Assembly: GCA_000320545.1 (NCBI GenBank)
Contig: ADNK01000640.1
Location: 3,693 to 67,692, forward strand
Direction: 5' to 3'
DNA: 64,000 bases
Source of the DNA: Bigelowiella natans CCMP2755
Lineage: Eukaryota > Protista > Cercozoa
The notes beneath the pieces were generated by a model. That model ran no database searches, was not told where the DNA came from, and saw only the letters and a program-made list of their open reading frames with translations. The translations under genes were made by a program, and so were the position numbers. Each line of letters begins with the position of its first letter. Positions within the stretch are counted from its first letter, which is position 1. Below are positions 18,058-49,867 of this stretch, one piece after another.

Positions 18058-19601
18058 TTAAGAAACAGTTCTTAATATGCACATGCGCGTAAAGTATATT
18101 GCGACTTGACAATATCTGCATTCTTGTATTTGTTGTAATTGTTGTTTTCTTTATTTCATCAGCTTCGATACAATACGAAATAAAATCCTAAAAAGGTTTC
18201 CTAAATTAAAGGTCTTAACTAGGTTTGGTATAATTATGGTGGGTTGACTGTAGTTCTATTTTCTGTTTTACTTTTATTTTTAATCTACAGTGATCTACAA
18301 TGATTCACAGCTATAAACCCGGTCTATATTTCTTTCAAGGGTATTGTTTTTATTGTTGTCTGGTATTATTTTATATTTTTTAAACTAATATTAAAAATGG
18401 AAAGCTATAGTGATATTTCCGAATTTGATAATGAAACTAATTTATCAAACTTCTTCTTAAAATGCGCCATAACTGGAGTGCTTATATTTATCTTCTTTTA
18501 CTCGTATCTATCTCCCTTCATTTATATTTAATCTCGGGTTGGTCAAATTCCCAGAGGCTCTCCTGTGTTTTATATTTCCAATAACTGACCCACAAAAGTC
18601 TCGAGTTGGTCAAATTCTCAGAGACTCTCCTGTGTTTTATATTTCCAGTAACTGGCCCAGAAAAGTCTCGAGTTGGTCAAATTCTCAGAGACTCTCCTGT
18701 GTTTTATATTTCCAATAACTGGCCCACAAAAGTCTCGAGTTGGTCAAATTCTCAGAGACTCTCCTGTGTTTTATATTTCCAGTAACTGGCCCACAAAAGT
18801 CTCGAGTTGGTCAAATTCTCAGAGACTCTCCTGTGTTTTATATTTCCAATATCTGGCCCACAAAAGTCTCGAGTTGGTCAAATTCTCAGAGACTCTCCTG
18901 TGTTAAAAGTGGAATTAGGTAATTCATTCTGGAAACCATCCTAGTGCATCCTGCCCAGTTAAACCGGACCCATTGGACCCATTGGACCCACTTGGACCCA
19001 CTTGGACTCACTTCGAGTTGGTCAAATTCTCAGAGACTCTCCTGTGTTTTATATTTCCAATAACTGGCCCACAAAAGTCTCGAGTTGGTCAAATTCTCAG
19101 AGACTCTCCTGTGTTTTACAAATTAAGTTCAGCCCTACCTTCTACAGAAATAATCACTGCGTAACCAGGGTAGGTTCGTGGGCCAGTTTAAAATTGGAGA
19201 TATGAAACACAGGAGAGTCTCTGGAAATTTGACCAACTCGAGATAATCCTGGGATATATATTATTTTAAGGATAAGTATAAATAAAGACCAATTAATGCA
19301 AAATTATACCCTTTACACGAGTTTTATGTAAAAAGGGATATTTGCGGAATATCGAAATAAGTCAAAATTAAACCCTATAAATACCCATATTAGACAAATA
19401 TTTGAGTTTTATAGTAGATATACTGGGTACGACTCGTATATATAGAAGAAATTATTAGGTTTAGAGAGATAAATACAAAATTACAAGATTTTACAAGACT
19501 TAAAACAAATTACAGAGAAACGAAATGTAAATTTCCAAAAGCAAAATATAGTTGTCGCGGTCGTGAATTATAGACCATGCATATTAAGAACTGTTTCTTA
19601 A
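18058..19601. mobile_element. Non-autonomous TIR element (copy 1, unmutated), ~1.54 kb
   Basis: Perfect 24-bp terminal inverted repeat TTAAGAAACAGTTCTTAATATGCA (18058-18081) / TGCATATTAAGAACTGTTTCTTAA (19578-19601). AT-rich, no credible ORF, internal tandem repeats. Outer TTAA plus GA...TC termini fits a Kolobok-type TTAA target site, but the TTAA may instead be part of the terminal palindrome. Confidence 0.85.
18533..19116 (+). repeat. 67-bp tandem repeat array (~5.5 + ~1.5 copies) split by a ~110-bp insert containing GGACCCA(C)TT mini-repeats
   Basis: Unit CTCGAGTTGGTCAAATTCTCAGAGACTCTCCTGTGTTTTATATTTCCARTAACTGGCCCASAAAAGT recurs every 67 bp (18600, 18667, 18734, 18801, 18868). Confidence 0.92.
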
Positions 19602-19657: not shown

Positions 19658-20781
19658 ATGTACGACAACATGGAAGTCAACCGAAGCAACAGCAACGCAA
19701 AGAGCCCTACCATGACCTGGGTTTTGTTAGGGTTTGTGGGGTTGTTTTCCATCATTGCTTTGATTATTGCTTCGGTGGCTATGCATAAGGCAGGAAACTG
19801 TTCATGTAACTCCGGCAGCGACACGACATCCATCGACCGCATCTCTGGCTCAACCAGCTTCAACGCATTTACAACCTATTGGGAGGCTTATGATGGTAAT
19901 TCGTATTGAAATTCTCTCGATGAAACGGGGAAATAAACCTCCGATGATAATATTTTTAAACATTATGCTTACCATTTACAAGATACGTGTGTTATAATTT
20001 TTTTGGCATCTCCCCCATCCCCCCATCTCCTGAAGAGGCCAATTGGAAGAAGACTGTGGCCGATGATATAAAATTCGAGATCGATAAGATTCAAGGAAGC
20101 GCACGCACGGGAAAAGACAACGTCTGGAGCTTTCGAATGGGACTTTCTTCCGACCCGAACGGCCAGCTCACTTGGACCAACACGTACGATAGTTATTTCT
20201 ACGATCCCGACCAGAACACTCTTTTGGCGCGAATGATTTCGATCTTGCGCAACACCGGAGAGACGATGCAAGTTGGGTGGTGGACTTGCAAATTCAATTC
20301 TGAAGGCAAGATCTCATCAATGTCCCAGAAGGTAATCTGGGCTAGCTGGCTCGTCGGATACTCCAACCAACAGAGCACTGCGGATAAGATATCAGGCAAA
20401 TATGGTTTCAACGCATTTACGACTGCTTGGGAGAACTATGATGAAACAACTTGGAAGTCGATTGTCGCCGACGATATTAATTTTGGCATCGATCAGATAA
20501 ATAGCAGCTTCATCCAGGGCAAGGAGAATGTATGGGCATTCCGCAAGACCTTGCAAAACGGCACCAACTCTCGGCTTGCGTGGACGAACACTTATTCAAA
20601 CTTCCTTATCGATCCATCCAACTCTTCGATCCTCCATGCACAAATGACCAGCTACATCAAAGCCACGGGCCAGACGATGCAGCTTGGTAAGTGGGTTTGC
20701 GAGTTCAACCAGCAAGGGAGAATTCGCAAAATGCGGCAGAACGTCCTGTGGGCTAGCTGGTTGAACTCAACTTCAAGCTGA
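19658..20781 (+). CDS. Membrane-anchored protein with two tandem SnoaL/NTF2-like domains (one intron ~19896-20035)
   Basis: TM helix WVLLGFVGLFSIIALIIASVAM. Internal duplication: ISGSTSFNAFTTYWEAYD-EANWKKTVADDIKFEID..GKDNVWSFR..WTNTY..GWWTCKFNSEGKI..VIWASWL versus ISGKYGFNAFTTAWENYDETTWKSIVADDINFGID..GKENVWAFR..WTNTY..GKWVCEFNQQGRI..VLWASWL. The fold call rests on the F..AW..D / ADD..F / G...v / f..dGkI pattern. Confidence 0.75.
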
Positions 20782-21074: not shown

Positions 21075-21291
21075 CTAGTGCAAAAAGCAAACAACAATTG
21101 CATGGCACAACAGCAGTATCAGCCTACATCATCTAGCCAACAAATCAACCTACCATCGATTTTGCAACCACAAAACACTCAACAAACCTACTAACCACCC
21201 CAAATCCGTTTGTGTGTACTTTTTCTGCTATGCCTAATTCTACTACCACTACTACTGCTACTACTACTACTACTCGTATTACTATCCACTC

Positions 21292-22789
21292 AAAACTCAA
21301 TATTTGTCTAATATGGGTATTTATAGGGTTTAATTTTGACTTATTTCGATGTTCCGCAAATGTCCCTTTTTGCATAAAACTCGTGTAAAGGGTATAATTT
21401 TGCATTAATTGGTCTTCATTTACACTTATCCTTAAAATAATATGTATCCCAGGATTATCTCGAGTTGGTCAAATTTCCAGAGACTCTCCTGTGTTTCATG
21501 TCTCCAATTTTAAACTGGCCCACGAACCTACCCTGGTTACGCAGTGATTGTTTCTGTAGAAGGTAGGGCTGAATTAAATAGTAGGAGGGGGGTATTCATA
21601 TTTCTATACATAAAGGTCTCGAGTTGGTCAAATTTCCAGAGACTCTCCTGTGTTTCATGTCTCCAATTTTAAACTGGCCCACGAACCTACCCTGGTTACG
21701 CAGTGATTATTTCCATGGAAGGTAGGGCTGAACTCAAATGGTAGGAGGGGGGTATTCATATTTCTACACACAAAGGTCTCGAGTTGGTCAAATTTCCAGA
21801 GACTCTCCTGTGTTTCATATCTCCAATTTTAAACTGGCCCACGAACCTACCCTGGTTACGCAGTGATTATTTCTGTAGAAGGTAGGGCTGAACTCAATTT
21901 GTAAAACACAGGAGAGTCTCTGAGAATTTGACCAACTCGAGACTTTTGTGGGCCAGTTATTGGAAATGTAAAACACAGGAGAGTCTCTGAGAATTTGACC
22001 AACTCGAGACTTTTCTGGGCCAGTTACTGGAAACACAAAACACAGGAGAGTCTCTGAGAATTTGACCAACTCGAGACTTTTGTGGGCCAGTTGTTGGAAA
22101 TATAAAACACAGGAGAGTCTCTGAGAATTTGACCAACTCGAGACTTTTCTGGGCCAGTTACTGGAAATATAAAACACAGGAGAGTCTCTGAGAATTTGAC
22201 CAACTCGAGACTTTTGTGGGTCAGTTATTGGAAATACAAAACACAGGAGAGCCTCTGGGAATTTGACCAACCCGAGATGTTGTTAAGTATTGGTCCATGT
22301 TCCGATGTATTTTGATCAAATATAAATGAAGGGAGATAGATGCGAGTAAAAGAAGATAAATATAAGCACTCCAGTTGTGGCGCATTTTGAGAAGAAGTTT
22401 GATAAATTAGTTTCATTGTCAAATTCGGAAATATCACTATAGCTTTCCATTTTTAATGTTAGTTTAAAAAACATAAAATAACACCAGACAACAATGAAAA
22501 CAATACCCTTGAAAGAAATGTAGACCGGGTTTATAGCTGTGAATCATTGTAGATCACTGTGGATTAAAAATGAAAGTAAAACAGAAAATGGAACTACAGT
22601 CAACCCACCATGATCATGCCAAACCTAGTTAAGACCTTCAATTTAGGAAACCTTTTTAGGATTTTATTTCGTATTGTATCGAAGCTGATGAAACAAAGAA
22701 AACAACAATTGCAACAAATACAAGAATGCAGATGTTGTCAAGTCGCAATGTGCTTTGCGCGCATGTGCATGTTAAGAACTGTTTCTTAA
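21292..22789 (-). mobile_element. Inverted, one-end-truncated copy 2 of the TIR element, partially TpA-hypermutated
   Basis: Reverse complement of 18058-19400 with extra ~159-bp units (CTCGAG at 21459, 21618, 21778) and 67-bp units (21903-22275). Terminal palindrome at 22772-22789. The differences from copy 1 that I checked are TA>TG or TA>CA. Confidence 0.88.
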
Positions 22790-23318
22790 CTCGAGGATCT
22801 AAAGCTTGCTCTGCTCAAAGCCATGAAGGAAATTGCAGATCGGAACGACCAAATGAGAAAGAAAAAGACTTGCAACATTCACGTGGTAAACGTGCACGAT
22901 TGTGGAATGAAGTGGAATGAAGTGTTGATCAACATGTTTCATTTGACATGATTGGCACTCGGGTTTGCAATTTTCTTGCAAGTGAGATGTCATGCGCATT
23001 TGTTGCTTTGTTAGTTAGGCAGCACAAAGATGAGTCCATGACAAGGTTGCAAGAGAAGCAGCTCGAAGAGCACAGCATGCAGGTGCAGGTGTTGCAAAAG
23101 CAGCTCGATGCAGCAAGTTCACACAACGAAATTTTGAAAAATGTGCAAATTCCATCATCCCAATTTGATCGAGATTGTGCATGGAGAGAATTCGACATTT
23201 CAATGGGAACAGAAGAGGAAGAAGACAAATTCGACAGTGTTCAAAAAAAAAAATGTCAGTGTCATGATTTTGCAGTGACGTGCACACGCACAAACATCGC
23301 ACAACAAACCACAACAAA

Positions 23319-23576
23319 ATGGACCACATCTGGCATTCTTTGGAGATCATCTCACAACTGTTGATCATCATTGGAGGGTTGAACTGGGGGCTGATCGCCG
23401 TCTACGATCTCGATCTGGTTGCGAGCCTTTTTGGCCCCAAAACTGTCGCAAGCCGTTTGGCATGTGGTTTGGTGGGAATGGGGGCCATGCTCTCGGCTCA
23501 ATTCCTTTTGCTAAAGTTGACAGAGGCCCAAGATTCGACCGTCGTCGAGTCTAGTGAAAGTGAAACGGTGGCATGA
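23319..23576 (+). CDS. DUF378-family small membrane protein (hypermutated)
   Basis: LLIIIGGLNWGLIAVYDLDLVASLFG..SRLACGLVG matches the DUF378 L.IiGglNWGl.g...dlV..lfG...sriiY.lvG consensus, with Cys (TGT) at the conserved Tyr position. Confidence 0.8.
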   Translation: MDHIWHSLEIISQLLIIIGGLNWGLIAVYDLDLVASLFGPKTVASRLACGLVGMGAMLSAQFLLLKLTEAQDSTVVESSESETVA

Positions 23577-23688
23577 GCTAAAATGCGTTTCTTCTTTTGC
23601 ATTGCTAAATGTTTTTTGCCACTTTGCAGTGATCGATGGAGACAGCGATCTGGCCTTTCCTGTTTTGTTTCTGTGCGCGCCTTCCAGA

Positions 23689-26005
23689 CAATGGCCAGTT
23701 CCTCTGCATGTTCGTTCGTGGAAACAATCTGGAATGTGATCGAAAGTGCAAACAAATCAGAAACCATTGGCCTTCGCTCAAAGAAAATGCTAGAACTTTT
23801 CCATTGTTTGGATGAGAATCGTTTGTGGGAAGAACGCGCCAAGGCATGCAGAAAACATGCTCGATTTGAGGACATGGTTGTTCGCAAGATGCCACAGACA
23901 ATGCGACACGAACTGTTTCCCTGCGTCCCTTCCAAAACACAGTGCGAACATCTCAAACTGCAGCACAAATTGGGGACAAAATCAAACAGATGTGAGATGT
24001 TTTTAGAAAGCAAGAATCGATTTTGTTTTGATTCTGTTCCTCTCTTGCAAGGTGTGCGGTCATGTCATTGTCACATTGGGACGGAATCAGTTCATCGCAA
24101 AGTCACGGAGCCTTCATCAAACAAGTGGTTGGATGGCGATCCGTCGAAATTGGTGCTCACCTGTGTTCTCATTGCACAACACATTTTCAAAAATGACGTC
24201 GATTTTTTTTTTTTTTGTGAAAAGAGGACCAAGCTCTGACCCACTCCACCACAAATGTGCACAAACCTCAACCATGGGAACAAGATTGTGTGCTGGATGT
24301 GGACCAGGATCATTGCAAAAATTTGGCCCGACCAATTGAAAAAAAAAATTCCAAATCACTTGGTGAACTGAGTGCAAGACAATGCAATTGCCTCCTTGGT
24401 GAAACTCATCCTGCTGCACTTCATTCCGATCAAAACATTGAGGGATGGGCTGTGATGAGATCAGCCATCGCAAACAAATGCAAAGTGACACAAGATCACG
24501 TTGACGAATTTTGCAAAGGTGATGGAGTCTCAAAACAAGTGAAATCCAATGCAGAAGAAACCGACATGAAGAAACATGGTGGAAATTTCACTTCGAAAGA
24601 ATGGGCTGAACAATCAAAAGTGATGCAAACCCTGACTGACAGAAAATTGGCAAACGATGTAGCAAAACAAGATGAAATCCTTCAAGAAAGAGCAGACATT
24701 GCACTAGCAAGAGAACTTCAACGGAGAGAAGGGAAAATTGAAGAGGAACATGAAGAAAATGATGAAAAAAATCACAGGAACGAAGAATTTCAAAAGACAA
24801 ATTTTCTCTGCTAAACATTTTCATTTCATTTTGTCCCGTGACAAAAGATGGCCCACAGTGTTCCGTTTGCTCAGGCTTGAAGATGCAACAATGGGCACCA
24901 TGTTTCTGCGCTTCATGTGCATTGTCAGAAAACCAGAAAATGGAAAAGCAATGAAGATGAACACGATTGAAAAGCCAAATGCAATGGAGGAAGCCATCAT
25001 GGGCAGACATGAAATGCAGCGCTTCAATGCATCTTTCGATTCACATTTTGACAAGGTCGACAACTGCGAAAAAAAAGAAAGACATTTGTCAGTCTGATTT
25101 GTTTTTGTTTGGGAGCAGCTAGAGCACGGCATCAATTTGGAGGAAGTGCACACACAACATCAATGGAGTTTCAAAACCAGGCGATGGAAGACACCCGGCC
25201 TGGCCACGTGAAAGTGGGCAACGACGCCATCACAATCGTGGCGCATGCGTGTGCATGCGAAACATGCGCAGTGCATGTTGGGAAAGCAAAATTTGACAGC
25301 ATGCTCTCAAATTTGTCACTGCACCATCTTCAAATCATGGGGGCCCACTGCAACATGTTGGCAGGCCACTTGACACAAGGAACCCTTGTCAAGGCGCTCA
25401 TGACCTCCACATGCTTTCACAGTCAGTTTGACACAAGCATGGCTGTGGCCAACCACAAACACTTGGACACAAAAATGAACAACGAAACGGACGTTGATTC
25501 GCAAGTCAAGAAGATGACAGAAGAGATGTCAACGAACGATGGCTCTGGCAGTTCCAGTGTGTCAAATGTTCTGACAAATGCAAACACACAGGAAAGCAAG
25601 TCGGACAACGTTGAACCATTTGGCGCATTTAGCGAGCTAAACCCGTTCACACTGGAGAGCATTTGCGGTCCTAGGTCGATGGCAGCAATGCGCATGATTT
25701 CACAGAAAGTTCCAGGCGTGCACACCGCAGAAATGCTCAAAGAAGAACCAGATCTGCTGGACACATTTGACATTGAACTAGACCCTGTCATCGAGACAGA
25801 GCTTCGTGAAAATGGAGCCCTGAATTTCTCCGAAACCAATGAAAACCACCATGGCGCAAGCAAACTTCCGGCCGCAAAAAAGGTGTTTTCTGATCTCCAT
25901 CGGAATTTGAAGCGCATGACGACCGGGACCCACTTTTCCAGTGCACGCGAAACCACTAGGCTCAAGTGCACACAGAATCACCTAGCCAGTGCAGAAGCCA
26001 AGTGA
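23689..26005 (+). pseudogene. Frameshifted, hypermutated ORF remnants of unknown function (23583-24239, 24257-24814, 24738-25097, 25109-26005)
   Basis: Consecutive + strand ORFs with breaks near homopolymer runs. Protein-like composition but Tyr-free and Cys/His/Met-rich. Confidence 0.45.
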
Positions 26006-28194
26006 CTTTGCGTGTTCTTTGAACTGTTTTTTCTTTGAAAAAAGAAATCTTTTGCAAAACCAAAAGCACCAGAGATCAACGCATTCCTGTTGGCATCAGG
26101 CACTGGCGCCATGATCTGTTTTTGTTGATGGATGTGTCTTTTGCGTTTTTTGCTGCCCCCGCTCATTGTTGACAGTTTGTTTCTTCCAATTTTTTGATTC
26201 TTGTTCATGTTTTTCATGGCCTTTTTTGCTTGGTCCTGTGTCTGTTTGAATTCATCAGCAAACACATCAGAGACCCGCGACCATTCCTCATCTACATCTT
26301 TGGTCAGATTTTTTGCAGATTTGAAGTTCTTTGCGGTGCGAGATGACTCTTTTGTTTTCTCCAACATTTCCCCCAACAGGACCTGCGCTTTTTTCAGCTC
26401 GGCTGTTTCCCCATTTCTGTCGGCATCCTTCTCGCCATCGACCTCCTGGATGGGTTTCTTGCCACAAACAGCTTCGAGGTCTGCCAGGACGTCGCTGAAA
26501 AGTGCAAGCGCATGGAACATCGTCGTGCGTTTTGGCAGAAAGCTTTCGGAGGCAACAAGTCCCTTCAAGGTTTCCTTTGTCCGCCTGGCGATGTGGTGGG
26601 CGTCTTGTTCGCATTTGTTCTCGGTCAAGACGTTCGACATGCTCTCTGGGAGATTGTTGCCCATGAATTTGATGGCGTTCTGCACCACAAGTTCGACCCC
26701 TGCATTGTCAAGCTTTTTGCGCACATCTCTTGCCTTTTTTTTCATCACAATGGTCAGCATGGTTGAAGCGTCCATGTGATCATCGCAGCCAACTAGCATG
26801 ACGTTTTGCGCCTTTTGTGCCATGGAAGCCACCTCACTGAGACAGCTAGCGTCTTCATCATTCGTGACCTTCTCTGCTGTGTCATGCTCTCCTAGTCCCA
26901 GACCTTTCAACTCAATGCTCACATTGCAAACTTCGTCCAGCTCTTTGGCCATGAGAGTTGTTTTGAAGATGAATTCATTGAGCTTTTCGATGGAATCGTC
27001 GCTGGTGAGGCTGTTCTTCCACTCTGCATGACCCACACTCTTTGAAAACTCACACTTTGTGCATGGTTGGGTGATGTTGCGTGAGAATGTTTCGAGCAGA
27101 GGGTTGTCACTCAGTCCCGAGCCCGACACGCGAAATTGGAAGGATGAGGTGGTTTTCAGTTTGCGCTCAAGCTCTTCCATCGTTTTCGCATGTGAGTGTT
27201 GTCAATGCAGGATGAATGGTTTGGCAATCTGCAACCTTCAAAATCGAGGTCAAACGTGAGCTTGTGCAGTCTTTTGTCAGCCATGTCGACTGCCGAATCC
27301 GATTCCTTCATCTCTTTCTTTGAAAAGGTGGAATTCACCATGAAGGGAGAGGCCAGATGCGAAAATGAAGAGAAGTAAGTGGCGCTTTCAAAGAGTTGGA
27401 ACTTGCACAAGTTTTTGTTGTCAAGGTTGGCCTTCCCAGAGTGCCGCAGTCTTGGGTCAGGGACTCCCATGGTGTTCATGTTGAAGATGTTTTCATGTTC
27501 ACGTGCGCAGCTGTTGTGGGATTCATCACACAGCATTGGAGTTTCCAAGTTGGATCCCAGCAACACCATGTTGCCAATTGAATTGCACGTTTCTGCATGT
27601 GAATCATTGCGCAATGTCCCAATTGCGTGCAGGTTGCTTCGAATGTGTTGGTCTTTGCAAAGATTGAGGTCGGGATGAAAGAGCATCATTGGGAGCTTTG
27701 CTTTTGAGGTGTCTCTCCCGAACATTTGATTGCCTTGTGCTCACATGTTCATTCAATTTCCGAATCTTCATGGGATTCTCTCTCCAGGCATCAACGTGAT
27801 CCAGGGTGCCTTCGTTCATGAATTCTGCAAGCTTCACCTTGCCGTCTTCGCACCCAAACGATGAAAGCACTTTGTCAAACATTGTCTCAACACTGTGCTC
27901 ATGCTCGTCGACTTTCTCGTCTTCTCCAGGCCTGCTTTCCGTCTTTTGTTCTTCTTTTTGGTCACCTGTTTGGCATTGCAAGTGAAAAACAGGACGCAAC
28001 AACTTGCAACTGCGTCCACATTTGCCATTGACTGCAGGGGGTCTCCGTGGCACAGGTCTCACAGCCGAATTCGGTGGGATGTTGTGAAACTGTTGCAGCA
28101 GCTCACACTCACAATCCACAATTTCTTGATCAATGTCGTCATTCATCTTTCGCAATTGACAGCAGAAGAGAAGGAGGGGGGTGGGATGTAGCAA
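25978..28194 (-). pseudogene. Hypermutated ORF remnants of unknown function (25978-27180, 27156-27725, 27604-28194), possibly one frameshifted gene
   Basis: Overlapping - strand ORFs. The 400-aa ORF is helical and charged with a KKRKRH NLS-like patch. Tyr is nearly absent. Confidence 0.45.
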
Positions 28195-29146
28195 AAGAAG
28201 TGGATGGAGAGGCTTTTCAGTTCACTCCTGACAATCTTGTTTCGGAATTCTGCAATTTGTGGCATTTGCAGGCACAAAGTCATTGACGCAGGCCCCATTT
28301 CCTTGAGTTCATTTCTGAACATGACAGCAAAAATGAAAAACACATGCTCTTAGCAATGATCAAGCGCAAAATGAAAAAAACAATGCCAGGACATTTGGCG
28401 GACAAATGATTTTCCAAATGTGAAGAAAACATGCAAAAACATCATCCATTTGAAACAAGCACCTGCAAATTGCAGTGAGAATTTTCCATCCTCTGGACTC
28501 CAAGTGCACACACAGTGGCTTCAATTGTGTGCTGAAGTTGCACTCTGTTTTCCATTTTTGGCCCAGAAAGCCTGCATTTTCAAGATGATGCAAACGTCAC
28601 TGGCAAATTGCAGGTAGCTCGGCCACAGCATTGTTCAGTTGCTCACAGCAACAAAGCCAATTTGCATGAAATTGTGCTCCAGAAACGCTTTCCCGCAAGT
28701 GGAGATTTTTGCACAAAATTGGACAGGTTTGGGTCTGCAAATGCAAAAATGGACTGGGATTTGCAATCAAATGTGCATGTGTTTTTTTTTTCCGGAGAGC
28801 ATGCTCACCCAAAGCTCGAATCCCAAATTCCATGCGATCAGAGGAGCAGGCTTTCTGGTAGCAGCCTGCAGCCCAAAGCTTCAATTTGACTTTCTGAATC
28901 CCGATTTCCATCTGAGCAGGTGTGTTGTGAGACGTGGCAGCCAAGTGCTTGGAAAGGAGAATGTGAATCCACGCCCAGCCCAGAAGAGAAGAACGAGTGC
29001 GATTGCCAACATTTCGAGAGAGAAGATGGAAGAACTGCAAAGAATGATGCTCCAGAAACAAGAAGAAAGCGACGAGGAGAGTAGCGAGGACATCGTGGGT
29101 GAGAACTCGCATTTTTTGCAAACATCTGACATCAAACTAAAATGAA

Positions 29147-32100
29147 GTGGTGTTTGTGTCATTTTGCACTGTGGCAGAGGTGATGGAAGGGCAGGACGAA
29201 AAGGCATGTGACAAGATGTTGAACCCATTTGTCGACACCATCCAGATGAAGAGAAATGGGATGATCACGACTTTTGGAATCGACAGCAAGCACAGCGATC
29301 AGACAGAGGACGAGGAAAAATTTGACGCAACCAACAGAAGCCTGAGTGACGTCGCGAGGGATGGCAATTTGGGGGATGTTGTTGAGCATGTGCAAACGAA
29401 CATGTGGAGGCTGCAACGCGAAGAGGCTCTCAATCACACAGAAAGGAAAGACATCGTGGAGACAGCCGTGCGGTGCTTGCAGTTTTCACATGCACACATG
29501 ACGCTTGGCCAGAAAGGCGCAAATCAGAAATGCGGCAGCTTGAACACCACGACCATCGTGGAAGAGCTTTTGCAAACTGACATTGTCGGCTTCGACATGG
29601 AGTTCCTGGCAGGGAATTTCCAGGAGCTCATGGTCTATTTGGTGCAAACATTGTGCTTCCACGACCCGGAAAATGCCCCAAAATGCAGAAACCTTGTGAT
29701 GTTTTTGATCGATGAGGTCGGGCAGAGCTTCGACTTTGCCTGCGCAGTGGAAGAGTTCGAGAATCGCAGAAACAACCATGTAGCCTTCGAAGATTTCTTC
29801 AGTGGAGTTCCTCTAGACAATCAGATGCCCACAGACATTGAAGCCACACGGGTTTGCTGGTCCAACGACAAAGACTACGAGAAGGTGTTTCCAGTGAAGT
29901 CCAGAGCCATGGATGCTGTCATGCATCAACTTGCGCTTCGGAAGTTCAAAACTGACGGACAAGCAACATGCAGACAAGCAGAGGGAATTCACAAGCCGTG
30001 TTGCACGAAAATGAGCCCATCAGTGGGGAATGAAACGTGCTTGGAGAAACGGGGAAGTAGCGAAAAGTCGCACCTCCCCATCAAACAGTGCGTCCACAAT
30101 TGCCCCATCCCAAACCTGGCTTGCCAATCGGTTCTGAACGTCAAGCAACAAGTTGAGGCAATCGAGCAGTGCACAAGGAGAGACACACGACTCTCGACGA
30201 ACACATTTCTTTGTGACTTTGAAGCGAAGGATGCTGATGGGAGAATGACTTCCTACCTCTGCGACGCGCATGGACACGGACTCTGCAAGGGCAGAGAGCA
30301 GTCTTGGTCCTCCGTTGCAAACACTGGTGAGGGAACAGAGCTAAGCGCAAGCGAGTTCGAGGCACAGCGTTTCACAAAGTCGCACCACCACAGCGATTTC
30401 CTTGATCCTCATGGGTGTTGGTTCCATCAGAATGGCAACGGCAATTTTCTGCATTTCATGCTGCGATTCCAGGACACCACAAGCAAAGGCACGGAGTTCG
30501 AGAGAAAGTGCTTTCCATGGAGTCTCGATGAAAATCAGGTGAAATTTCAAAAGAAGCGATGCCAAAAATGGCTGGATCTTGGGTTCAAGGCTAGCAAGAA
30601 GCGTCAGAGCACTGGCAAAATGCTCAACTACAACCCCTTCTTGGTGGAGCTCCATGAGTTTTGTGGGCTAGCAATGCAGATCTCATGCAAGCCCAGAGAC
30701 ATGACCAAGCGAGAGGTGCACACAGCTCACATGGGAGAAGCCGGGTCGGGTGAAACTGCGGTGACGGAACTCCTAGCTCTGATGGGAGGGCCCGACTCTG
30801 TGGTGAAGATTGAATGCGATGACACCGAAAGCACCCTGTCATTTGACGAGCAGGAGTTGCGCAAAGACACGGTGAGAGCAATCGTGTTCGATGAAGCCCA
30901 CAAGGCCGGAGATGAAGTCAGGCAGATGATTCACAAGTTCATTGGCAACGGCGTGGCTTCTTTGAATGCCAAATTTCAGCAGCTTGTGTGCAAAAACATG
31001 GGAGGATTCCGCGTGATTGTGACAATGAACGGGCCAATGAGCGAGGACATGATGTCGAACATCGCCTCTGCTGACCGTCGCATTCTCCCTCGCGCATTTG
31101 CAAGAGGAGCAGTCAAACACGATGATGTGGTTGCCGCGCAAACTTCACGTCATTTCCACCAGAGCGAAAGGTCTGCTTTGAGCAAGCCTGGGTGGCAGTC
31201 AAACCACATGATCCACACTCTTCGCTCACCAAACAATTCCCATTTGTCGTGCACCATGGCTTTCTTTGGGGCAGACGTAGTGAAAAATCTGAAGTCGCAA
31301 CTGGATGACATTGCGCGCCAGCAGTGGCTTCTCGGTCGGACGGTGATGAAAGAGTTCATCGACGAAGGCTACCTGCAGATCTGCCCGCATTGCATCATGC
31401 CTTGCACGAACCTGAAGACCGCCTACGAGCTCTTCATGCAAAGCAGGTGCAGGGTTGGGATGAAGAAGCAGTTTCGGAAACTGAACGAAGAAAACTTTCT
31501 GCTCATCCAGAAGCTCACTGGATGTGGGATGTTCAAATGCCACCCTGATGCCAAGATGCCAGAACACACGCACTTGAAGGGTTCCAACAAATTGGCACTG
31601 GTCAGCGGAATCAACATGCCTGCTCCTGACTCTTCAGCCTGTCGATCTCTACATGCTGTGTGCGGCGAAAAAAACCGCAATGTGAACCCCATCCGAATGA
31701 ATGCTGAAGATGTTCACGATGCCCATGTGGTGGGACTTCGAGTGTCGGAGAAAGGTCTCCTTTCCTTCAAGAACAAAGAGTTCAAGAACGCGGAAAGCAC
31801 TTGCTGCAGCACCACAGATCTTGCGCATTTCGCCAAATTTTGCGCGGTTGTCGATGGCTGTGTTTCCATTGTGGACGACGAGGATTTTTGCTGCGGAAAA
31901 CGATGTGATTTTGATGAAGAAAGAGCATCCAACCCGTCAATGCAGACTGATCATGTGATGAATGTGGAAGAGACAAGGAACGTGAGGGTCATCATTGGCA
32001 TTGCAAATGCAAGTACCATGTGGGCAGAAAATGCAAAGGGAGAGCAGAAACTGTGGGAGCAGGTAAAAAAGCTCCCCAAAAAGTTCCGGATGCGTGAGTT

Positions 32101-32647
32101 CTGTGGGCATCCTCTGAAATTTTCACAGGAAGGCACCGTGCTTGACCGCCCATTGCAAACAGAGACGGTTGTTGTCTCTGAAACTCAAATGTGGGATCGT
32201 TTTGTTCACACTGGCATCCCTAGAAAAGAGCTTGCAAACCAAACTTGGCAAGAGGTCGTCGCTCGCCAAATTTTGGACAAATGTGCAGTTTTTTGTTCCA
32301 CAGAAGATCACCATGGCAACAAGATGATCAGCACACGCTTTGTTTTTCATGACACTGACGACAAGAGTGAAAGGAAAGAAAGCGCACGCCAGAAATTTTT
32401 TGAAGGGCCAGTCCAAGCGCAGCTACACCAACTTTCATGTGTCCTTTGTGCACAGTGGTGGCATCGCTTCAAACACCAGAAAGGCCACAATGACGAGGAA
32501 CGTGCCACATTGAGGAAATTTTGTGCACACGAAAGCACAAGGTTCAAGTTCTCAGACACGTGTTTGCGGAAAACCAATCATTCCATGACGCAAAGTGTGT
32601 TGCATGCAGTCATGTTGACACATTTTCATTGCAACCATGCTTGCTAG
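29147..32647 (+). pseudogene. D5-like superfamily-3 helicase (viral/Polinton-like-virus type), probably inactivated by hypermutation
   Basis: Walker A GEAGSG[E]T (30734-30757), Walker B RAIVFDE, motif C RVIVTMN, arginine-finger DRRILP.F, and a downstream LKTAYELF..G winged-helix-like segment. 1166 codons without introns. Confidence 0.75.
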
Positions 32648-32730
32648 TGCGCGATTTTGCATGCCATGAGATGTCGAAAAGTGCAACCAATGATGATCAT
32701 GATGCTTCTTGCACTTGTCATCGTGACTGG

Positions 32731-32828
32731 AACAATGAACAATGACAACAAACCACATTTCCAAAATGCAACAAGACACTTGCAGTGCACGAAACGCAGT
32801 GCCTCGAGCTAAATCTAGCGAGGTCTAA
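32731..32828 (+). repeat. Dispersed ~100-bp repeat, copy A (Helitron-3'-end-like)
   Basis: AACAATGA..CATTTCCAAAATG..AAGACA.TTGCAGTG..CGAAACGCAGTGCCTCGA..GAGGTCTAA, shared with 49681-49784 and 50151-50250. Confidence 0.7.
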
Positions 32829-32935
32829 TTTTGGGCATGACGCCATGACAATGATGCTGCAACATTGACTAGCAACGTGTGTGCATGCACATGTGTGCAT
32901 GCATGTTGAGCCTAGCTGTTTTGCTACATTGTGCA

Positions 32936-33522
32936 TCACTTTTGGTTGTCGCATGGCAAACATGTAATCGATTTCACAGTTGTGAACTTTGGCACTTTTT
33001 TGAAAAAGTGACTTTCAAAAACCTGAATCTGCTCGACCATTTTGCAACTTTGAGTCATTTTTGTGTCATTGCCACTAGCAAAGGTGCAAAATGACGGCTG
33101 CATTGTCGTCTTTTTTTTTTTTTTGAACTCTTTTCAAAAGGCAGAAATTTGCTAGTTCACTGTTCACCATTCACAACTGTTACCATGACTAGCACGTGTG
33201 ACAAACGTGGCACATTTGCTAGCAAAAATGACAAAAAGTGACACATGTTCAAATTTTTACTAGTGCATCATTCACAAGTGGAGTTGTGAATGGTGAATGG
33301 TGAACTAGCAAATTTCTGCCTTTCAAAAAGAGTTCAAAAAAAAAAAAAACAACAATGTAGCCGTCATTTTGCACCTTCACTAGCAGCAATGACACAAAAA
33401 TGACTCAAAGTTGCAAAATGGTCGAGCAGATTCCAGGTTTTGAAAGTCACTTTTTCAAAAAAGTGCCAAAGTTCACAACTGTGAAATCGATTACATGTTT
33501 GCCATGCGACAACCAAAAGTGA
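32936..33522. repeat. Foldback/MITE-like inverted repeat: ~243-bp arms (32936-33178, 33282-33522) with ~100-bp spacer
   Basis: TCACTTTTGGTTGTCGCATGGCAAACATGTAATCGATTTCACAG... pairs with ...CTGTGAAATCGATTACATGTTTGCCATGCGACAACCAAAAGTGA. Confidence 0.9.
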
Positions 33523-33701
33523 CACATGATTGCACTCAAACAGTTAGGCTCAAAGGCAATGCCCAGAGAAGGAGTTGTTTTTGTGTCATCACTACTAGTC
33601 AAAACAAATTGCAATCTGTGAGACGGATGTGATGAATTGATTGAATCTTTTCAATGGTCATCCTGATGTAGCTTTGCAAAGCAGCGGCTACAGCGCTCAT
33701 G

Positions 33702-34112
33702 TCATGTCCATTTGTCCATTCTGTCACATGTTGCCGCGAATGTGGATTGCAATCTGTCCTTGACCAATTCCCTGATTTTAGCATTTTCTACAAACAACAA
33801 CTTGCTGACATGCACTTGCTTTGTTGCGAAGCGAGCCTTGGACACCTGTACTAGAACGTTTGCCCGAGCAAAACTAGAGTTTCCAATGTGTATGCCTTTG
33901 ATTTCTTCGTCATAGACATCGGAGAAGTCAACATGTCTTGTGATGATTACCTCTGAATGCAGCAATTTATCATCATTTTGGGCGTGTTTCAATTTTTCTT
34001 TTAGTTGCTTGTTTTCGTTTTGAAGATTTTGCACAAGGACATCTTTGAGTACCTTGCATGTAGAGGTAAATAGGGGCGCTGCGTTTTTTATTGTTTTATT
34101 TGCTAAGCTCAT
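33702..34112 (-). CDS. Hypothetical protein with coiled coil (partially mutated)
   Basis: 136-aa ATG-initiated ORF downstream of an AT-rich spacer; coiled-coil segment LVQNLQNENKQLKEKLKH. Confidence 0.45.
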   Translation of the reverse strand: MSLANKTIKNAAPLFTSTCKVLKDVLVQNLQNENKQLKEKLKHAQNDDKLLHSEVIITRHVDFSDVYDEEIKGIHIGNSSFARANVLVQVSKARFATKQVHVSKLLFVENAKIRELVKDRLQSTFAATCDRMDKWT

Positions 34113-34215
34113 ACTTTTATGTTAAATTTACACATTGATGAATTGCAAGTACTGCATAACATATTAAATTTTATATTTTATTATGGAAACTTATGAATAG
34201 CGCATCAAGTATATG

Positions 34216-35325
34216 TCATGGTTTGAGAATAATTTCTGAAAAAGCTTTTACGGGTTTTGTAATACTGATGTAAACTTTATCATCCCGAATTTTGATTTTC
34301 GCGTTGTAATCTTCTTGGTGTTTCTGGGCAAACACTGCCATGTTATCTTTTCCAGTATCTTTTCTTGTTGTGTGGAGATATGCAATTCGACGTTTGCAAT
34401 TTTTGAGTTTGAAGTAAGATTCAGATGAAGAAATGCGGGAATTTGATGGCAACTTATTTATTACTTTCCCCTTATATTCGATTGTATACCCAACTTTAAG
34501 ATTTCTTTTTGTAAACAGTCCGTAACCAGCGTCTTTTATGTGTGAGATTTTGCGATACAAGTGATTAACATCGTTTTTGTATTTTTTGTGATCGAGAAGA
34601 TGAATACTGGAATTGAAATCTATAATCGACTTGACGCCTATGTAGGCATGAAGACACAGTGACAGTTCGTTACTTTTATTAGAACCTCCAGAGTGGAAGA
34701 ATAAAGGGTGCATGAAGTAAACTTTCCCAAGTTCTAATTCCAGATTGACGATCTTATCGATTGGGCAATCTTTTCGATTTATCTTATGTGAACCCGGAAT
34801 GACCCTGATAGTCCTGGCAGTTAAAGGTATTATCACACTACAAAGAACGAGCGTCTTATTGACACTCAAGTAATTTTCATACCCAAGTTCCTTTGCATTT
34901 TCCCTGTCGAAGTCAGTGTGTATTAACTGTTCTTTGCAATTTTTTTCAGTGACAATGATGCTAAGATGCTGGGCCTTGATTGGGTTTGAACAAGAAAGAC
35001 CAACCTTATATCCGTTGAAATGAGCTGTAGCAGCAACTTTTTTGACCATTTCCATGATTTCTTTTGCAGAATTGATACATGTTTCCTTTTCTGATTTTGT
35101 AAAGCCTGGCACCTTTTCTAGGTGTGATAGATAGAATATCAATCGTCTTCCTTTGTAATCTGTTGTTAGGCTGTCTTCTACATCATTCAAAACCGTATTG
35201 AATATAAGGTCACGGTCGTCACTTTTATGCAACTTTTTCGTAAAGTCTTCAATATTCTTTAGATGAAGTTTAGCCGATTCCGGTAAACTTCTATAGGCAA
35301 TTCCGTTAAGTTTCATGTTTTTCAT
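34216..35325 (-). CDS. PhyH-like 2OG-Fe(II) dioxygenase domain fused to a divergent SET domain
   Basis: QLIHTDF (HxD), IRVIPGSHK, GKVYFMHPLFFHSGGSN (distal His). Then SHIKDAGYGLFTKRNLKVGYTIEYKG (SET motif I) and YNAKIK..KVYISITKPVKAFSEII (SET C-terminal). Intronless, AT-rich, unmutated. Confidence 0.78.
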   Translation of the reverse strand: MKNMKLNGIAYRSLPESAKLHLKNIEDFTKKLHKSDDRDLIFNTVLNDVEDSLTTDYKGRRLIFYLSHLEKVPGFTKSEKETCINSAKEIMEMVKKVAATAHFNGYKVGLSCSNPIKAQHLSIIVTEKNCKEQLIHTDFDRENAKELGYENYLSVNKTLVLCSVIIPLTARTIRVIPGSHKINRKDCPIDKIVNLELELGKVYFMHPLFFHSGGSNKSNELSLCLHAYIGVKSIIDFNSSIHLLDHKKYKNDVNHLYRKISHIKDAGYGLFTKRNLKVGYTIEYKGKVINKLPSNSRISSSESYFKLKNCKRRIAYLHTTRKDTGKDNMAVFAQKHQEDYNAKIKIRDDKVYISITKPVKAFSEIILKP

Positions 35326-35682
35326 GGTAATGGGGTTTTTCTTGGTATAACTTCGAGGTTTTTTCCTACTGGGACCGGTCGCATTGACTACATCTTTTGC
35401 CTTATATATTGATGGAAAAGACTGATAAGTAAGTAATACTTTGCAAGATGCATTAAAAGGTATAAATAAATTAGTACCAATGAATAAGAATAAAATTTAA
35501 TTTATCTCATTTTGAGTTGAAGGTAGTATAGTATGACATACAATACTGTCTTGGTCATTATCAGGTAGTGGCCAAAAGCGTTTCCTTATATTCAGAGCAA
35601 ATGTTTGAGCAGCTTCTGTTATCATCTGTGGTCAATGTATGTACAGCAGTTAAATGCCTCCTATGTATAAAACAATATAAAT

Positions 35683-36634
35683 ATAGAAATATGAATACCC
35701 CCCTCCTACTATTTAATTCAGCCCTACCTTCTACAGAAATAATCACTGCGTAACCAGGGTATTAAGGTAGGTTCGTGGGCCAGTTTAAAATTGGAGATAT
35801 GAAACACAGGAGAGTCTCTGGAAATTTGACCAACTCGAGACCTTTATGTATAGAAATATGAATACCCCCCTCCTACTATTTAATTCAGCCCTACCTTCTA
35901 CAGAAATAATGACTGTGTAACCAGGGTAGGTTCGTGGGCCAGTTTAAAATTGGAGATATGAAACACAGGAGAGTCTCTGGAAATTTGACCAACTCGAGAC
36001 CTTTATGTATAGAAATATGAATACCTCCCTCCTACTATTTAATTCAGCCCTACCTTCTACAGAAATAATCACTGCGTGACCAGGGTAGGTTCGTGGGCCA
36101 GTTTAAAATTGGAGATATGAAACACAGGAGAGTCTCTGGAAATTTGACCAACTCGAGACCTTTATGTATAGAAATATGAATACCCCCCTCCTACTATTTA
36201 ATTCAGCCCTACCTTCTACAGAAATAATGACTGTGTAACCAGGGTAGGTTCGTGGGCCAGTTTAAAATTGGAGATATGAAACACAGGAGAGTCTCTGGAA
36301 ATTTGACCAACTCGAGACCTTTATGTATAGAAATATGAATACCTCCCTCCTACTATTTAATTCAGCCCTACCTTCTACAGAAATAATCACTGCGTGACCA
36401 GGGTAGGTTCGTGGGCCAGTTTAAAATTGGAGATATGAAACACAGGAGAGTCTCTGGAAATTTGACCAACTCGAGACCTTTATGTATAGAAATATGAATA
36501 CCCCCCTCCTACTATTTAATTCAGCCCTACCTTCTACAGAAATAATCACTGCGTAACCAGGGTAGGTTCGTGGGCCAGTTTAAAATTGGAGATATGAAAC
36601 ACAGGAGAGTCTCTGGAAATTTGACCAACTCGAG
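35683..36634 (-). repeat. 159-bp tandem repeat, six copies
   Basis: CTCGAG recurs at 35834, 35993, 36152, 36311, 36470, 36629. Each unit contains the reverse complement of the ~36-bp core of the 67-bp repeat. Confidence 0.93.
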
Positions 36635-36991
36635 ATAGTCCTGGGATATATATTATTTTAGGGATAAGTATAAATAAAGACCAATTAATGCAAAATTATA
36701 CCCTTTACACGAGTTTTATGTAAAAAGGGATATTTGCGGAATATCGAAATAAGTCAAAATTAAACCCTATAAATACCCATATTAGACAAATATTTGAGTT
36801 TTATGGTAGATATACTGGGTACGACTCGTATATATAGAAGAAATTATGAGGTTTAGAGAGATAAATACAAAATTACAAGATTTTACAAGACTTAAAACAA
36901 ATACAGAGAAACGAAATGTAAATTTCCAAAAGCAAAATATAGTTGTCGCGGTCGTGAATTATAGACCGTGCATATTAAGAAACAGTTCTTA
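36530..36991 (+). mobile_element. Right terminus of the element family (copy 3)
   Basis: Near-identical to 19140-19601; ends GCATATTAAGAAACAGTTCTTA. Confidence 0.88.
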
Positions 36992-42989: not shown

Positions 42990-43990
42990 CCAGAGGTTTC
43001 ATGACAGCACACACATGCTGATGTGGTATTTCCACCTACATGCAGTTGTTCTCTATTCAATTTGAGTGCTCTCATGTTGAGACACCAGCTTTAGCTGTGT
43101 TTGCAGGATGGTGATTTGTGAACATGATCATGTTTGGCACGATAACACGCATATAGTCTATTCATCTGTTTCTACGTGCCCTCCATGCATCGTGTGGATG
43201 TGCGCGAGCTTTCTTGCTGCACAGCAATTCTAACATTTGCGACAGCAGGATCCATCGTGCAGTGATGCTGACACAGGTGATGATGCATGCTAGCATGGCC
43301 CATCGTGCTTGTTGGCAGCTACAATGCGCGTGTTGCCACTTGCACGCACATGACGGTGATCCATGCATGATAGACATGCAATACACAACACATGCCAGCA
43401 CGCTAGCGTGTCTGATGACCGGCTCCAGCAGGCAGCTAGCTAGCTAGGGCGTCCTAGCTAGCGTCCACAATTGTGCCATCGATCATGTCGCATTGATTTG
43501 GCTGACTTCACAGCCACGCACGCATGTAGCACTTGCTAGTGTGGCTAGTGCGCAAGCAAAGAACTTCAACGTGCCATCGACGTTCTTGCATTGTGCAATT
43601 GGCACAAGCATGACTTGCCGATTGGTCGATCATCTCGGGTCGATCGTTCGGATCTCTGATCTCCCTGGTTAGCTGGGGACTTTGTTTTTCAAGTGCTTGG
43701 TTTTGGCAACGACCACGCGACGTGCACGTTCTTCCAGTGCCTCTGAGTCGAGCACTCCGGACGCACCGCAGCAAGGTTTTCAAAGGTGATGCGTGCCTGC
43801 GTGATTCATCGTCACCCAAACGGATCAAGCATCTCTGCTACAACATTGCTCCTACTCACCGTGGTTCGTTGGCAAGCTCCAGTGCTACCATGTAGGAGTA
43901 GTCACTGCTCACACAGGGCCACTGATGGGGCTGCTCACACCTTGGCCAGTGCTCTCCGTCACCGGCAGCAGGGCCTTTGTGAACGAGTGA
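42990..43990. other. TpA-depleted (hypermutated) intergenic patch
   Basis: Rich in CA/TG (catgcatg, tgcacgcacatg); many of the surviving TAs are in CTAG (GCTAGCTAGCTAG at ~43434). Confidence 0.65.
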
Positions 43991-44456
43991 GAGATTTCTC
44001 GGGATTTGATTCTTCATAATCAGGAAGAATTCATTTGTCGCAGGAAAAAAACGGCCTATTAATTTCACCATCCTCTGCAGCAGCCGTTGTCAGCTCCTTC
44101 CGAAACACACACAGCATCGAACACGGGGGCCTCGGTGGCGCAGTGACCCGAGCTGCTTTGCCTGTGGATCGGGGTCAGGTTGGCTTGGGGGGGAGGCACG
44201 AGGTGTCAATCCCCCAGGCGGCTCATAGGGGGGAAAATCGCGTTGGATGTGGCGCCCGGCCTGTGTTCTTGTTTTCCTGCTTTGCCATCATTGCGAGTGA
44301 GCTAGGTCGGTAATTTCTCCAACCCCCCCCCCCCCCCTGTTCTTTATCAAACGTCTGATCAATAAATGGCAGGTCGATATCACCTCTCCTTCGACGTGTC
44401 AAGAGGGCAGGAGCGTCTGCGAGGATCATTATCGAGGAGGAGGGGGGTTCAAAAGG

Positions 44457-48620: not shown

Positions 48621-49680
48621 CACAGGATCATCGCGGGTCCTCAGTCGTTGTTACAATCTCAGATTTGTCAACTCTGTATTCGCATGCACATGGTGACAGT
48701 CTGCCTATAATTTGCCTTACAGGGTATTGTTGGGGATCTCGTAGAAAATAGAAATATTTTTGCAGTGGTTCCTTGTTCAACTAGTCAAGCTCAATGTCGT
48801 GCATGTCGATTGTGCATGCTGCATTGCACACAGAAGCAACGACTGCTGTGCTTGCTTGATGCTGTGCAATTCATCATGGCGTTGCAAACAACTCATGCAA
48901 ATTGCATGCGTTTGCTGAGGACACCGTGCTCGCAAGTTGCAGGTTTCCCCCTCTCGATTTGTCTAGTTGTCTTGAAGAGACACCTGTTCATTTGATGATT
49001 TTGTGTGTGCACCATTGGTGTGCTTTCCAAGCTAGCAAGCAACATGCACTTGATGAAGAAGACACACATCTGTTTGGTCTCACCCCAATGTCATGTGGTT
49101 GAAGGAATGACAAGACATGGAGAGAACGAACGAATGAAGTGATGCAGACTGCAAAGAATTGCAAGAATGAGACAATGAGAAGTGACAGCTTTGCGCGCGC
49201 GCGCCTGCGCACACACATGTTGCATGTGGCCGCCAACAACCTGCTGGCGTGCCACACGAGCGCTGTTTTCTTGAGACCAGCAAGCAGTGCCGTGGTGATG
49301 CTGTGATGCTTGCACTCTGATCATCATGAGCATTGTTCACTTGCGTGCTTGCGTGGGTGCACGGCTGTCTAGCTGCAGCTAGCTAGCTGAACGGCAGTGA
49401 TCACCGTCGTCATGTGCGCCTCGCGCACACGGCTAGATGATGGACATGGCAACAGCATGCACAACACACGTGTGATGTCAAGCTACAGCAAGTGTCCATG
49501 ATCTAGCAATTGACTTGCAATCGCCAATGGGAGCTCATGCTACACAAGTCGACACGCCATCACACAAGACTCTGCGGCGTGTGCGTGCACAACGAGCTGA
49601 AGTGTTGCTCCGCGTTCAAACATTGCTAGATTGTGCAAGCAGTGACACTAGCTCGATGCAACAACACCACCGTGCCACGT

Positions 49681-49784
49681 GAACAATTGACAATGATGAT
49701 GAAATGCATTTCCAAGCTGTTGCAAGATGTTTGCAGTGTGCGAAACGCAGTGCCTCGAACTGACTTCAGTGAGGTCTAACTGGT
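49681..49784 (+). repeat. Dispersed ~100-bp repeat, copy B
   Basis: Matches 32731-32828 and 50151-50250; hairpin CCTC-GA-ACTG-ACTT-CAGT-GAGG followed by TCTAACTGGT. Confidence 0.7.
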
Positions 49785-49867
49785 GAAACCAGAATTGTTC
49801 AAGAACGGCATTCTGGCCATCGAGGAGCTTGGAGATCTCCTTTTGGGACTGTGAGATCTCCTTCTAG

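What the first reader, a model, noticed from the sequence alone, without database searches (positions are those of the whole stretch)
34216..35325. Element-borne 2OG-Fe(II) dioxygenase-SET fusion sitting where the hypermutation stops
Seen: an intact HxD...H triad and PhyH-type IPGSH motif are fused to a SET domain with a good GxGLF motif. The NHS motif is degenerate (FAQKH), the terminal Tyr is missing, and the usual 2OG-binding Arg is not obvious. The ORF is unmutated though adjacent to saturated DNA. Established: 2OG oxygenases include histone and nucleic-acid demethylases/hydroxylases, and chlorovirus vSET methylates H3K27. Inference: a possible chromatin- or DNA-modifying anti-silencing factor of the element. 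A link to the mutator or its boundary is speculative.
Basis: partly seen in the sequence, partly recalled or inferred. Interest (0 to 1): 0.75.

Follow-up and report, generated by a model that had tools for sequence, protein, structure and literature searches.

The report
Mutator-hit oxygenase-SET cargo gene in alga

Summary
The fusion is real. The 369-aa ORF has an N-terminal double-stranded-beta-helix oxygenase that matches PhyH-type enzymes best and a C-terminal SET domain. It belongs to a small unnamed family (6 relatives). The host is Bigelowiella natans. The neighbouring TpA hypermutation is already in a 2026 preprint and was noted by this scan on other pieces of this genome; the gene was not. 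New here: the canonical strand-8 Arg is Ser222 in 11 of 12 aligned sequences, and the same 11 have Arg171; the outgroup has the reverse, so the 2OG anchor has likely moved. SET decays across the family: intact in one member, degenerate or lost in the rest. The anti-silencing or boundary idea is not supported. Near-identical family copies differ only by TpA-type changes (24 of 24 pairwise differences, against 13-18% in divergent pairs), one B. natans paralogue has no Tyr left, and this ORF itself carries one or two such changes. Other mutated islands in the window end as sharply without such a gene. Which element owns the gene is unresolved.

The parts
34216..35325 (-). ORF, 369 aa, PhyH-type Fe(II)/2OG oxygenase fused to a degenerate SET domain (P0001); GC 0.34-0.37, no intron within the ORF
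34627..35325 (-). Oxygenase domain, residues 1-233: H136, D138, H211 triad; IPGSH; Arg171/Ser222 in place of the canonical strand-8 Arg
34228..34527 (-). SET domain, residues 267-366: GYGLF kept, FAQKH where MLL1 has FINHS, ends EIILKP with no Tyr
35326..35496 (-). Open frame upstream of the ATG with a basic patch (SRKKPR); the JGI model Bigna1/70504 splices onto it. True start untested
33702..34112 (-). 136-aa co-directional ORF of no known family; the hypermutation border runs through it
22790..33850 (.). TpA-saturated block (rho TpA 0.07-0.24; 83-100% of surviving TpA are CTA/TAG), virus-like
29147..32647 (+). 1166-aa ORF; residues 400-800 resemble D5-like primase-helicases (ESM Atlas features 0.94-0.95; a lead without alignment)
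32648..33701 (.). Debris between the helicase and the gene: high-copy short repeats (depth hundreds of times single copy) and a 187-bp inverted repeat 32936-33522
35682..36991 (+). 159-bp tandem array plus right end of a TTAA/TIR element (copy C), 1 of 51 TpA lost; no matching left end found between 22790 and 35682
18058..19601 (+). Complete short TIR element A, TTAA-flanked, GA...TC termini, unmutated reference copy
21290..22789 (-). Copy A' of the short element, graded TpA loss (14/28, 10/31, 4/23, 6/26 from the core outward)

Best explanation
The gene is likely a passenger of foreign mobile DNA that encodes a predicted Fe(II)/2-oxoglutarate hydroxylase fused to a SET domain that is likely inactive in this copy, and it lies at the fringe of the host's TpA mutator, likely as a lightly hit target and not as the cause of the border. 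Shown: both folds, the metal triad, the Arg171/Ser222 swap in sequence, the SET decay series, and TpA-type scars in the family. Inferred: Arg171 on strand 4 points into the pocket and binds the 2OG carboxylate in place of the lost strand-8 Arg; the ancestral fusion (as in P0004) hydroxylated and methylated one protein substrate, either element/virus protein or host chromatin; the oxygenase is the retained core. Inferred: the mutator spreads from the silent virus-like core and decays with distance, and this gene mostly escapes because it is transcribed or joined the block late.
For: Fold: Foldseek 156 matches at E<=0.001, led by AndA, TlxIJ, OkaE, AsqJ; VIA-align best EvdMO1 Z 12.8, rmsd 3.7, 186 aligned. 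SET profile hits MLL1 E 0.004, EZH2, PRDM9. Arg171+Ser222 in 11 of 12 rows, Thr171+Arg222 in outgroup P0024; PMC2938197 states classical enzymes use a strand-8 Arg and JmjC a strand-4 basic residue. SET series: P0004 YINH...CY intact; P0003 NQ...C; P0001 QK, no Tyr; P0006 middle deleted; P0025/P0008 cut; P0005 lost. Mutator scars: 24 of 24 pairwise differences inside two clusters are TpA-type (11 pairs, not independent) against 13-18% in 5 divergent pairs; P0025 to P0008 22 against 4, p 5e-4, P0008 has 0 Tyr in 249 aa. The preprint reports that this mutator targets viral and other foreign DNA. Graded loss in A' shows spread from the core, 14/28 against 10/49, p 0.01.
Against: No relative with genomic context was found, so no intact element is shown to carry the gene. 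It is single-copy and separated from the helicase by repeat debris. The substrate is untested, and the best structural matches are small-molecule biosynthetic enzymes. The HxD region of the model has pLDDT under 50, so pocket geometry was not checked. The swap rests on one outgroup. Of 9 listed differences from RNA contigs 6 change the residue, which does not suggest strong constraint. Transcription in this strain was not shown.
Confidence: 0.55

Rival explanations
1. The protein is an anti-silencing factor that removes or writes chromatin or DNA marks and so stops the mutator at this border.
For: The right border is sharper (about 250 bp) than the left (over 1.4 kb of partial loss), and copy C beyond the gene is almost untouched (1 of 51). 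A basic patch lies just upstream in frame. Relatives occur in transcriptome records. An oxygenase plus SET pairing is typical of chromatin enzymes (JmjC-SET fusions listed in PMC2938197).
Against: The fold is PhyH-type, with AlkB/TET rows at Z 10.0-10.5 below the top rows and no JmjC in the top 50. SET motifs are broken in this copy. Relatives are mutated, one to saturation. Islands 48755-50281 and 55833-56654 end within about 200-300 bp with no such gene. A diffusible protein would not explain a border on one side only.
Confidence: 0.1
2. The gene is a decaying relic: both domains are dead and the ORF survives only because it is young.
For: No strand-8 Arg, broken SET, 6 of 9 listed differences from RNA contigs are non-synonymous, including L199P; SET truncations recur in the family.
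Against: The triad, IPGSH, HP and HSGxSN motifs and Arg171 are kept across members only 24-38% identical; the frame is intact; RNA contigs cover most of the ORF in 2 runs of one study.
Confidence: 0.15
3. The gene is an ordinary small-molecule or lipid hydroxylase (host-domesticated or viral auxiliary metabolic gene), and SET is an irrelevant remnant.
For: Best structural and profile matches are biosynthetic PhyH-type enzymes; giant viruses and phages carry many 2OG oxygenases (73 BFVD matches at E<=0.001); SET is dispensable in P0005.
Against: The fusion is present in most lineages of the family and intact in P0004, which points to a shared protein substrate (inference); low GC and mutator scars argue against an established host gene.
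Confidence: 0.2

Closest known systems
PhyH-type Fe(II)/2OG dioxygenases (PF05721; EvdMO1, AviO1, SnoK, KanJ, AsqJ, OkaE, human PHYH)
   Same: DSBH fold, HxD...H triad, RVIPGSH-like motif, HSGxSN after the distal His
   Different: Strand-8 Arg replaced by Ser with a family-specific Arg171; C-terminal SET fusion; identity 9-17% to solved chains; below the Pfam cut-off
SET lysine methyltransferases (PF00856; MLL1, EZH2, chlorovirus vSET)
   Same: GxGLF, EYxG, and NH plus terminal Tyr in family member P0004
   Different: This copy has FAQK for FINH and lacks the Tyr that PMC3914023 describes as conserved and catalytic (Y105 in vSET); no specific kinship to vSET was found (not among the 20 PDB hits)
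JmjC (KDM4/JMJD2)-SET fusions listed in PMC2938197
   Same: Oxygenase and SET in one chain; a strand-4 basic residue as likely 2OG anchor
   Different: The oxygenase here matches the classical PhyH-type branch, not JmjC; no chromatin reader domains
TpA hypermutation of integrated viral DNA in B. natans (bioRxiv 10.64898/2026.01.13.699255)
   Same: Same species, same TpA to TpG/CpA signature on both strands in virus-like DNA
   Different: The main text has no mention of an oxygenase, of spreading or of boundaries; here a gradient into an adjacent insert and scars in transcript records are shown
Kolobok-type DNA transposon ends (PMC9587614)
   Same: TTAA flanks, RR...YY termini and TIRs in short element A
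   Different: No transposase seen among the window ORFs scanned; linkage of the gene to this element is not shown

Membership tests
Classical Fe(II)/2OG dioxygenase (PhyH-type) | Double-stranded beta-helix fold | tested here: met
   Model residues 1-233 match at Z 12.8, rmsd 3.7, 186 aligned; Foldseek
Classical Fe(II)/2OG dioxygenase (PhyH-type) | HxD...H iron triad | tested here: met
   H136, D138, H211; complete in 10 of 12 rows (P0003 lacks the N-terminal part, P0008 has R at 211)
Classical Fe(II)/2OG dioxygenase (PhyH-type) | Conserved Arg on strand 8 binding 2OG | tested here: not met
   Ser222 in 11 of 12 rows; Arg171 is a likely substitute
Classical Fe(II)/2OG dioxygenase (PhyH-type) | Pfam PhyH score above the curated cut-off | tested here: not met
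   21.2 bits against 22
Classical Fe(II)/2OG dioxygenase (PhyH-type) | Fe/2OG-dependent oxidation of a substrate | not testable with these tools
   Needs an assay
SET domain methyltransferase | SET fold homology and GxGLF | tested here: met
   Pfam E 3.9e-4 over model positions 1-101 of 105, 21.3 bits against cut-off 22.4; profile hits MLL1, EZH2, PRDM9. The SET part was not folded alone
SET domain methyltransferase | NH motif for SAM binding | tested here: not met
   FAQKH against FINHS in MLL1; P0004 keeps YINH; role of the motif recalled
SET domain methyltransferase | C-terminal catalytic Tyr | tested here: not met
   Protein ends EIILKP; P0002 ends the same way
JmjC histone demethylase | Best structural match to JmjC | tested here: inconclusive
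   No JmjC among the 50 rows shown; PhyH-type rows lead
AlkB/TET nucleic-acid oxygenase | Best structural match to AlkB/TET | tested here: inconclusive
   ALKBH5/7, FTO, NgTET1 at Z 10.0-10.5, about 2 units below the top rows
Cargo of a virus-like element (PLV/virophage/NCLDV) | Gene lies inside an element with replication and capsid genes and defined ends | tested here: inconclusive
   D5-like helicase 1.6 kb away; no capsid identified; repeat debris intervenes; no relative on viral contigs
Kolobok-type transposon | TTAA duplication and RR...YY termini | tested here: met
   Short element A only; copy C lacks a left end and has a variant terminus
Kolobok-type transposon | DDD/E transposase | tested here: inconclusive
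   No DDE hit among the 14 window ORFs scanned against Pfam; mutated ORFs could be missed

The most novel reading that the evidence does not exclude
A previously unnamed family of mobile-DNA enzymes in chlorarachniophyte-type algae couples a PhyH-type oxygenase with a relocated, JmjC-like 2OG anchor to a SET domain and edits host histone or DNA marks to keep element DNA out of the chromatin state that recruits the TpA mutator. It would be the first counter-defence against this hypermutation system and a handle on how the mutator picks targets.
Probability: 0.1. Interest if true: 0.85.

Novelty: new variant of a known kind. Interest (0 to 1): 0.42.

Why it matters
The architecture (PhyH-type oxygenase plus SET) and the reciprocal Arg swap were not found in my literature searches and give a clean biochemical test of an alternative 2OG-binding solution. 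The locus also offers a measurable gradient of the B. natans TpA mutator (two copies of one short element, one graded, one untouched) and shows mutator scars in transcript records, which bears on the open question of how the mutator is targeted.

Tried and rejected
No whole genome is held. Single-sequence searches were nearly empty: only the self record among 1622 candidates, 0 PDB hits, P0004 found only itself, NCBIfam 0 and PHROGs nothing under E 0.17. Single-sequence AlphaFold failed (pLDDT 32). ESM Atlas gave only 0.79, a lead. Context searches found no relative: viral contigs, metagenome contigs (the 9 pattern hits gave one 16-residue match and no family member), and the viral record behind L010 (L010 itself is a 25-residue weak match to the helicase). 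NvfE, the top profile hit (E 0.0026), is a cosubstrate-free isomerase (PMC6030086 passages); I considered a 2OG-free reaction but the hit is weak and ties with OkaE and PHYH. Codon-junction TpA in the ORF is 35 against 46 +/- 4 in shuffles; I did not count this as mutation because host DNA is also TpA-poor. RNA contigs do not cover the mutated core, but absence of cover is no evidence. The top BFVD hit (Yasminevirus A0A5K0U7Y0, 473 columns, rmsd 24.6) could not be examined. Blanc et al. 2015 is not held. A full list of RNA-versus-DNA differences over the ORF was not obtained, so the selection estimate rests on 9 sites.

Full report
Observation. The ORF is at 34216-35325 on the minus strand and encodes 369 aa. 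Pfam finds SET (residues 267-366, model positions 1-101 of 105) and PhyH (173-219), each at E 3.9e-4 and each about 1 bit under the curated cut-off. A named cluster member of the near-identical record P0002 is the Bigelowiella natans gene model Bigna1/70504, whose last 369 residues are this ORF, so the host is B. natans.

Surroundings. TpA is almost absent from 22790 to about 33850: rho(TpA) is 0.07 in 22790-29146 and 0.09 in the 1166-aa ORF, against 0.74-0.79 in host flanks and 0.64-0.67 in the oxygenase-SET ORF; 90-94% of surviving TpA in the core are CTA or TAG against 34-35% in the flanks. The CTA/TAG split was taken from earlier scan notes and holds here. Residues 400-800 of the long ORF resemble D5-like primase-helicases by language-model features (0.94-0.95; a lead without an alignment), so the block is likely virus-like. 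The right border fades over about 33850-34090, inside a 136-aa ORF, 130-370 bp past the stop of the gene. The process is already described in this species (bioRxiv 10.64898/2026.01.13.699255; I read parts 1-3 of 5 of the text, and a word search found no oxygenase, boundary or spread; supplements not seen).

The window also holds a short TTAA-flanked TIR element in three pieces: A (18058-19601, complete), A' (22789-21290, truncated) and a right half C (35682-36991) directly upstream of the gene. A has GA...TC termini, the signature that PMC9587614 gives for Kolobok (passages); no transposase was seen in the 14 window ORFs scanned. In the left end, 23 of 23 substitutions between A and A' are TpA losses in A'. 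The loss is graded away from the core, 14/28, 10/31, 4/23, 6/26 (nearest segment against the two far ones p 0.01), while C has lost 1 of 51. In 2 DNA runs the gene and the core are at single-copy depth and the element ends at about two copies (these runs may be the source of the window), so this is a local set of ends and not a large family. Whether the gene belongs to C, to the virus-like block or to neither is unresolved; its GC (0.34-0.37) matches A and C (0.34, 0.37) better than host flanks (0.46-0.47).

The family. A full HMMER scan of 1.84 billion representatives gave 7 hits at E<=0.001: the self record and 6 relatives; a profile search added P0025. Sources are JGI/IMG and Logan contigs, MMETSP transcript records and a second B. 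natans gene model, Bigna1/137252 (P0008). With a 12-row alignment the model reached pLDDT 62.7, pTM 0.56. Residues 1-233 match 2OG oxygenases: Foldseek led by AndA, TlxIJ, OkaE and AsqJ; VIA-align led by EvdMO1 (Z 12.8, rmsd 3.7, 186 aligned), AviO1, SnoK and KanJ, with ALKBH5/7, FTO and NgTET1 at Z 10.0-10.5 and no JmjC in the 50 rows shown. The SET part was not tested structurally, but a three-row profile hit MLL1 (E 0.004), EZH2 and PRDM9 among 20 PDB sequences at E<=10.

The missing Arg. PMC2938197 (passages) states that classical 2OG oxygenases anchor the cosubstrate with an Arg on strand 8, whereas JmjC enzymes use a basic residue on strand 4. Here the strand-8 position is Ser222 in 11 of 12 rows, and those same 11 have Arg171; the stand-alone outgroup P0024 has Arg at 222 and Thr at 171. 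The 11 rows include near-duplicates and stand for about six lineages. Arg171 begins the strand 171-175 of the model, which I count as strand 4. I infer that the anchor moved. This rests on one outgroup and on no geometry, since the HxD region of the model is under pLDDT 50.

The SET decays. P0004 keeps YINH and a terminal CY; P0003 has NQ and C; this copy has QK and stops at EIILKP; P0006 lacks the middle; P0025 and P0008 are cut short; P0005 has lost the domain. PMC3914023 (passages) describes the terminal Tyr as conserved and catalytic (Y105 in vSET); the role of the NH motif is recalled. P0002 ends like this copy, and an RNA contig spans the stop with only a 3-base gap elsewhere, so the truncation is likely shared with relatives. 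This SET is likely inactive.

Is the gene protected from the mutator? The evidence says the family is a target. Among near-identical members, all 24 amino-acid differences over 11 pairs are reachable by TpA to TpG/CpA (pairs are not independent; 3 pairs had no difference), against 13-18% in 5 divergent control pairs. P0025 to P0008 shows 22 such changes against 4 in reverse (p 5e-4), and P0008 has no Tyr in 249 aa. P0003 has no Tyr after residue 200. This ORF differs from P0002 at one residue only, C112 against Y, a TpA-type change, and 1 of 9 listed differences from RNA contigs is a synonymous TpA loss in the window. So the gene is lightly hit, not immune. These scars are also the best evidence for foreign origin, since the preprint ties the signature to viral and other foreign DNA. 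Two other islands in the window (48755-50281, 55833-56654) end within about 200-300 bp with no such gene, so a sharp border needs no special factor. Against my reading: the right border is sharper than the left and C beyond the gene is nearly clean, which the anti-silencing idea would predict; transcription or late arrival explains it as well but is untested.

Expression. Contigs from 2 marine metatranscriptome runs of one study cover 34211-34889 and 35073-35320 (X15) and 34285-35312 (X16) at about 94-99% identity. Contigs cannot prove transcription and come from relatives, not this strain. Of the 9 differences shown within the ORF (40 of 129 rows were printed), 6 change the residue: no sign of strong constraint, on a small sample.

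Novelty. Three literature searches for the architecture found nothing or only PMC2938197, which lists SET fusions for JmjC KDM4, not for PhyH-type enzymes; most subscription papers are outside the library. PMC5499653 (passages) covers B. natans PLVs and has no mention of dioxygenase or SET. Verdict: a real, apparently unnamed PhyH-type oxygenase-SET family with a likely relocated cosubstrate anchor, likely carried by foreign DNA and scarred by a known mutator. New variant of a known kind, interest 0.42; the counter-defence reading has about a 10% chance.

Noticed in passing
window 18058-18074, 19585-19601, 22773-22789, 36975-36991: Four exact copies of a near-palindromic 17-mer with an asymmetric 4-base centre (0.24 expected). 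At the right end of copy C the centre is flipped relative to the right end of A, so 18058 and 36975 form a direct repeat 18.9 kb apart, like a recombinase core site. Either a second insertion into the terminal TTAA or site-specific recombination; unexplained.
   Followed up: partly
window 21290-22789: Copy A' against A gives a direct measure of mutator spread: about 50% of TpA lost next to the core, about 20% at 1.0-1.5 kb.
   Followed up: yes
window 34211 and 33620-33643: An RNA contig leaves the window 5 bases after the stop codon; its loose end is the reverse complement of the high-copy repeat at 33620 with two TpA intact. A wild relative may have that repeat inverted or inserted right behind the gene.
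   Followed up: partly
window 33617-33702 and 32730-32860: Short repeats with contig depth hundreds to thousands of times single copy; related pieces at 49681-49779 and 50146-50241 lie in another TpA-depleted island.
   Followed up: no
P0005 and P0006 clusters: Transcriptome-derived copies differ from each other only by TpA-type changes, suggesting the mutator also acts in the unnamed source organisms and on genes that appear in transcript sets.
   Followed up: partly
window 19960-20781: Unmutated host-like gene with a duplicated SnoaL-like domain (E 5.5e-4) lying between elements A and A'.
   Followed up: no
window 43382-44311, 48755-50281, 55833-56654: Three further small TpA-depleted islands.
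   Followed up: partly
window 59250-59789: Chromodomain exon (Pfam E 1.2e-8) in a host gene.
   Followed up: no
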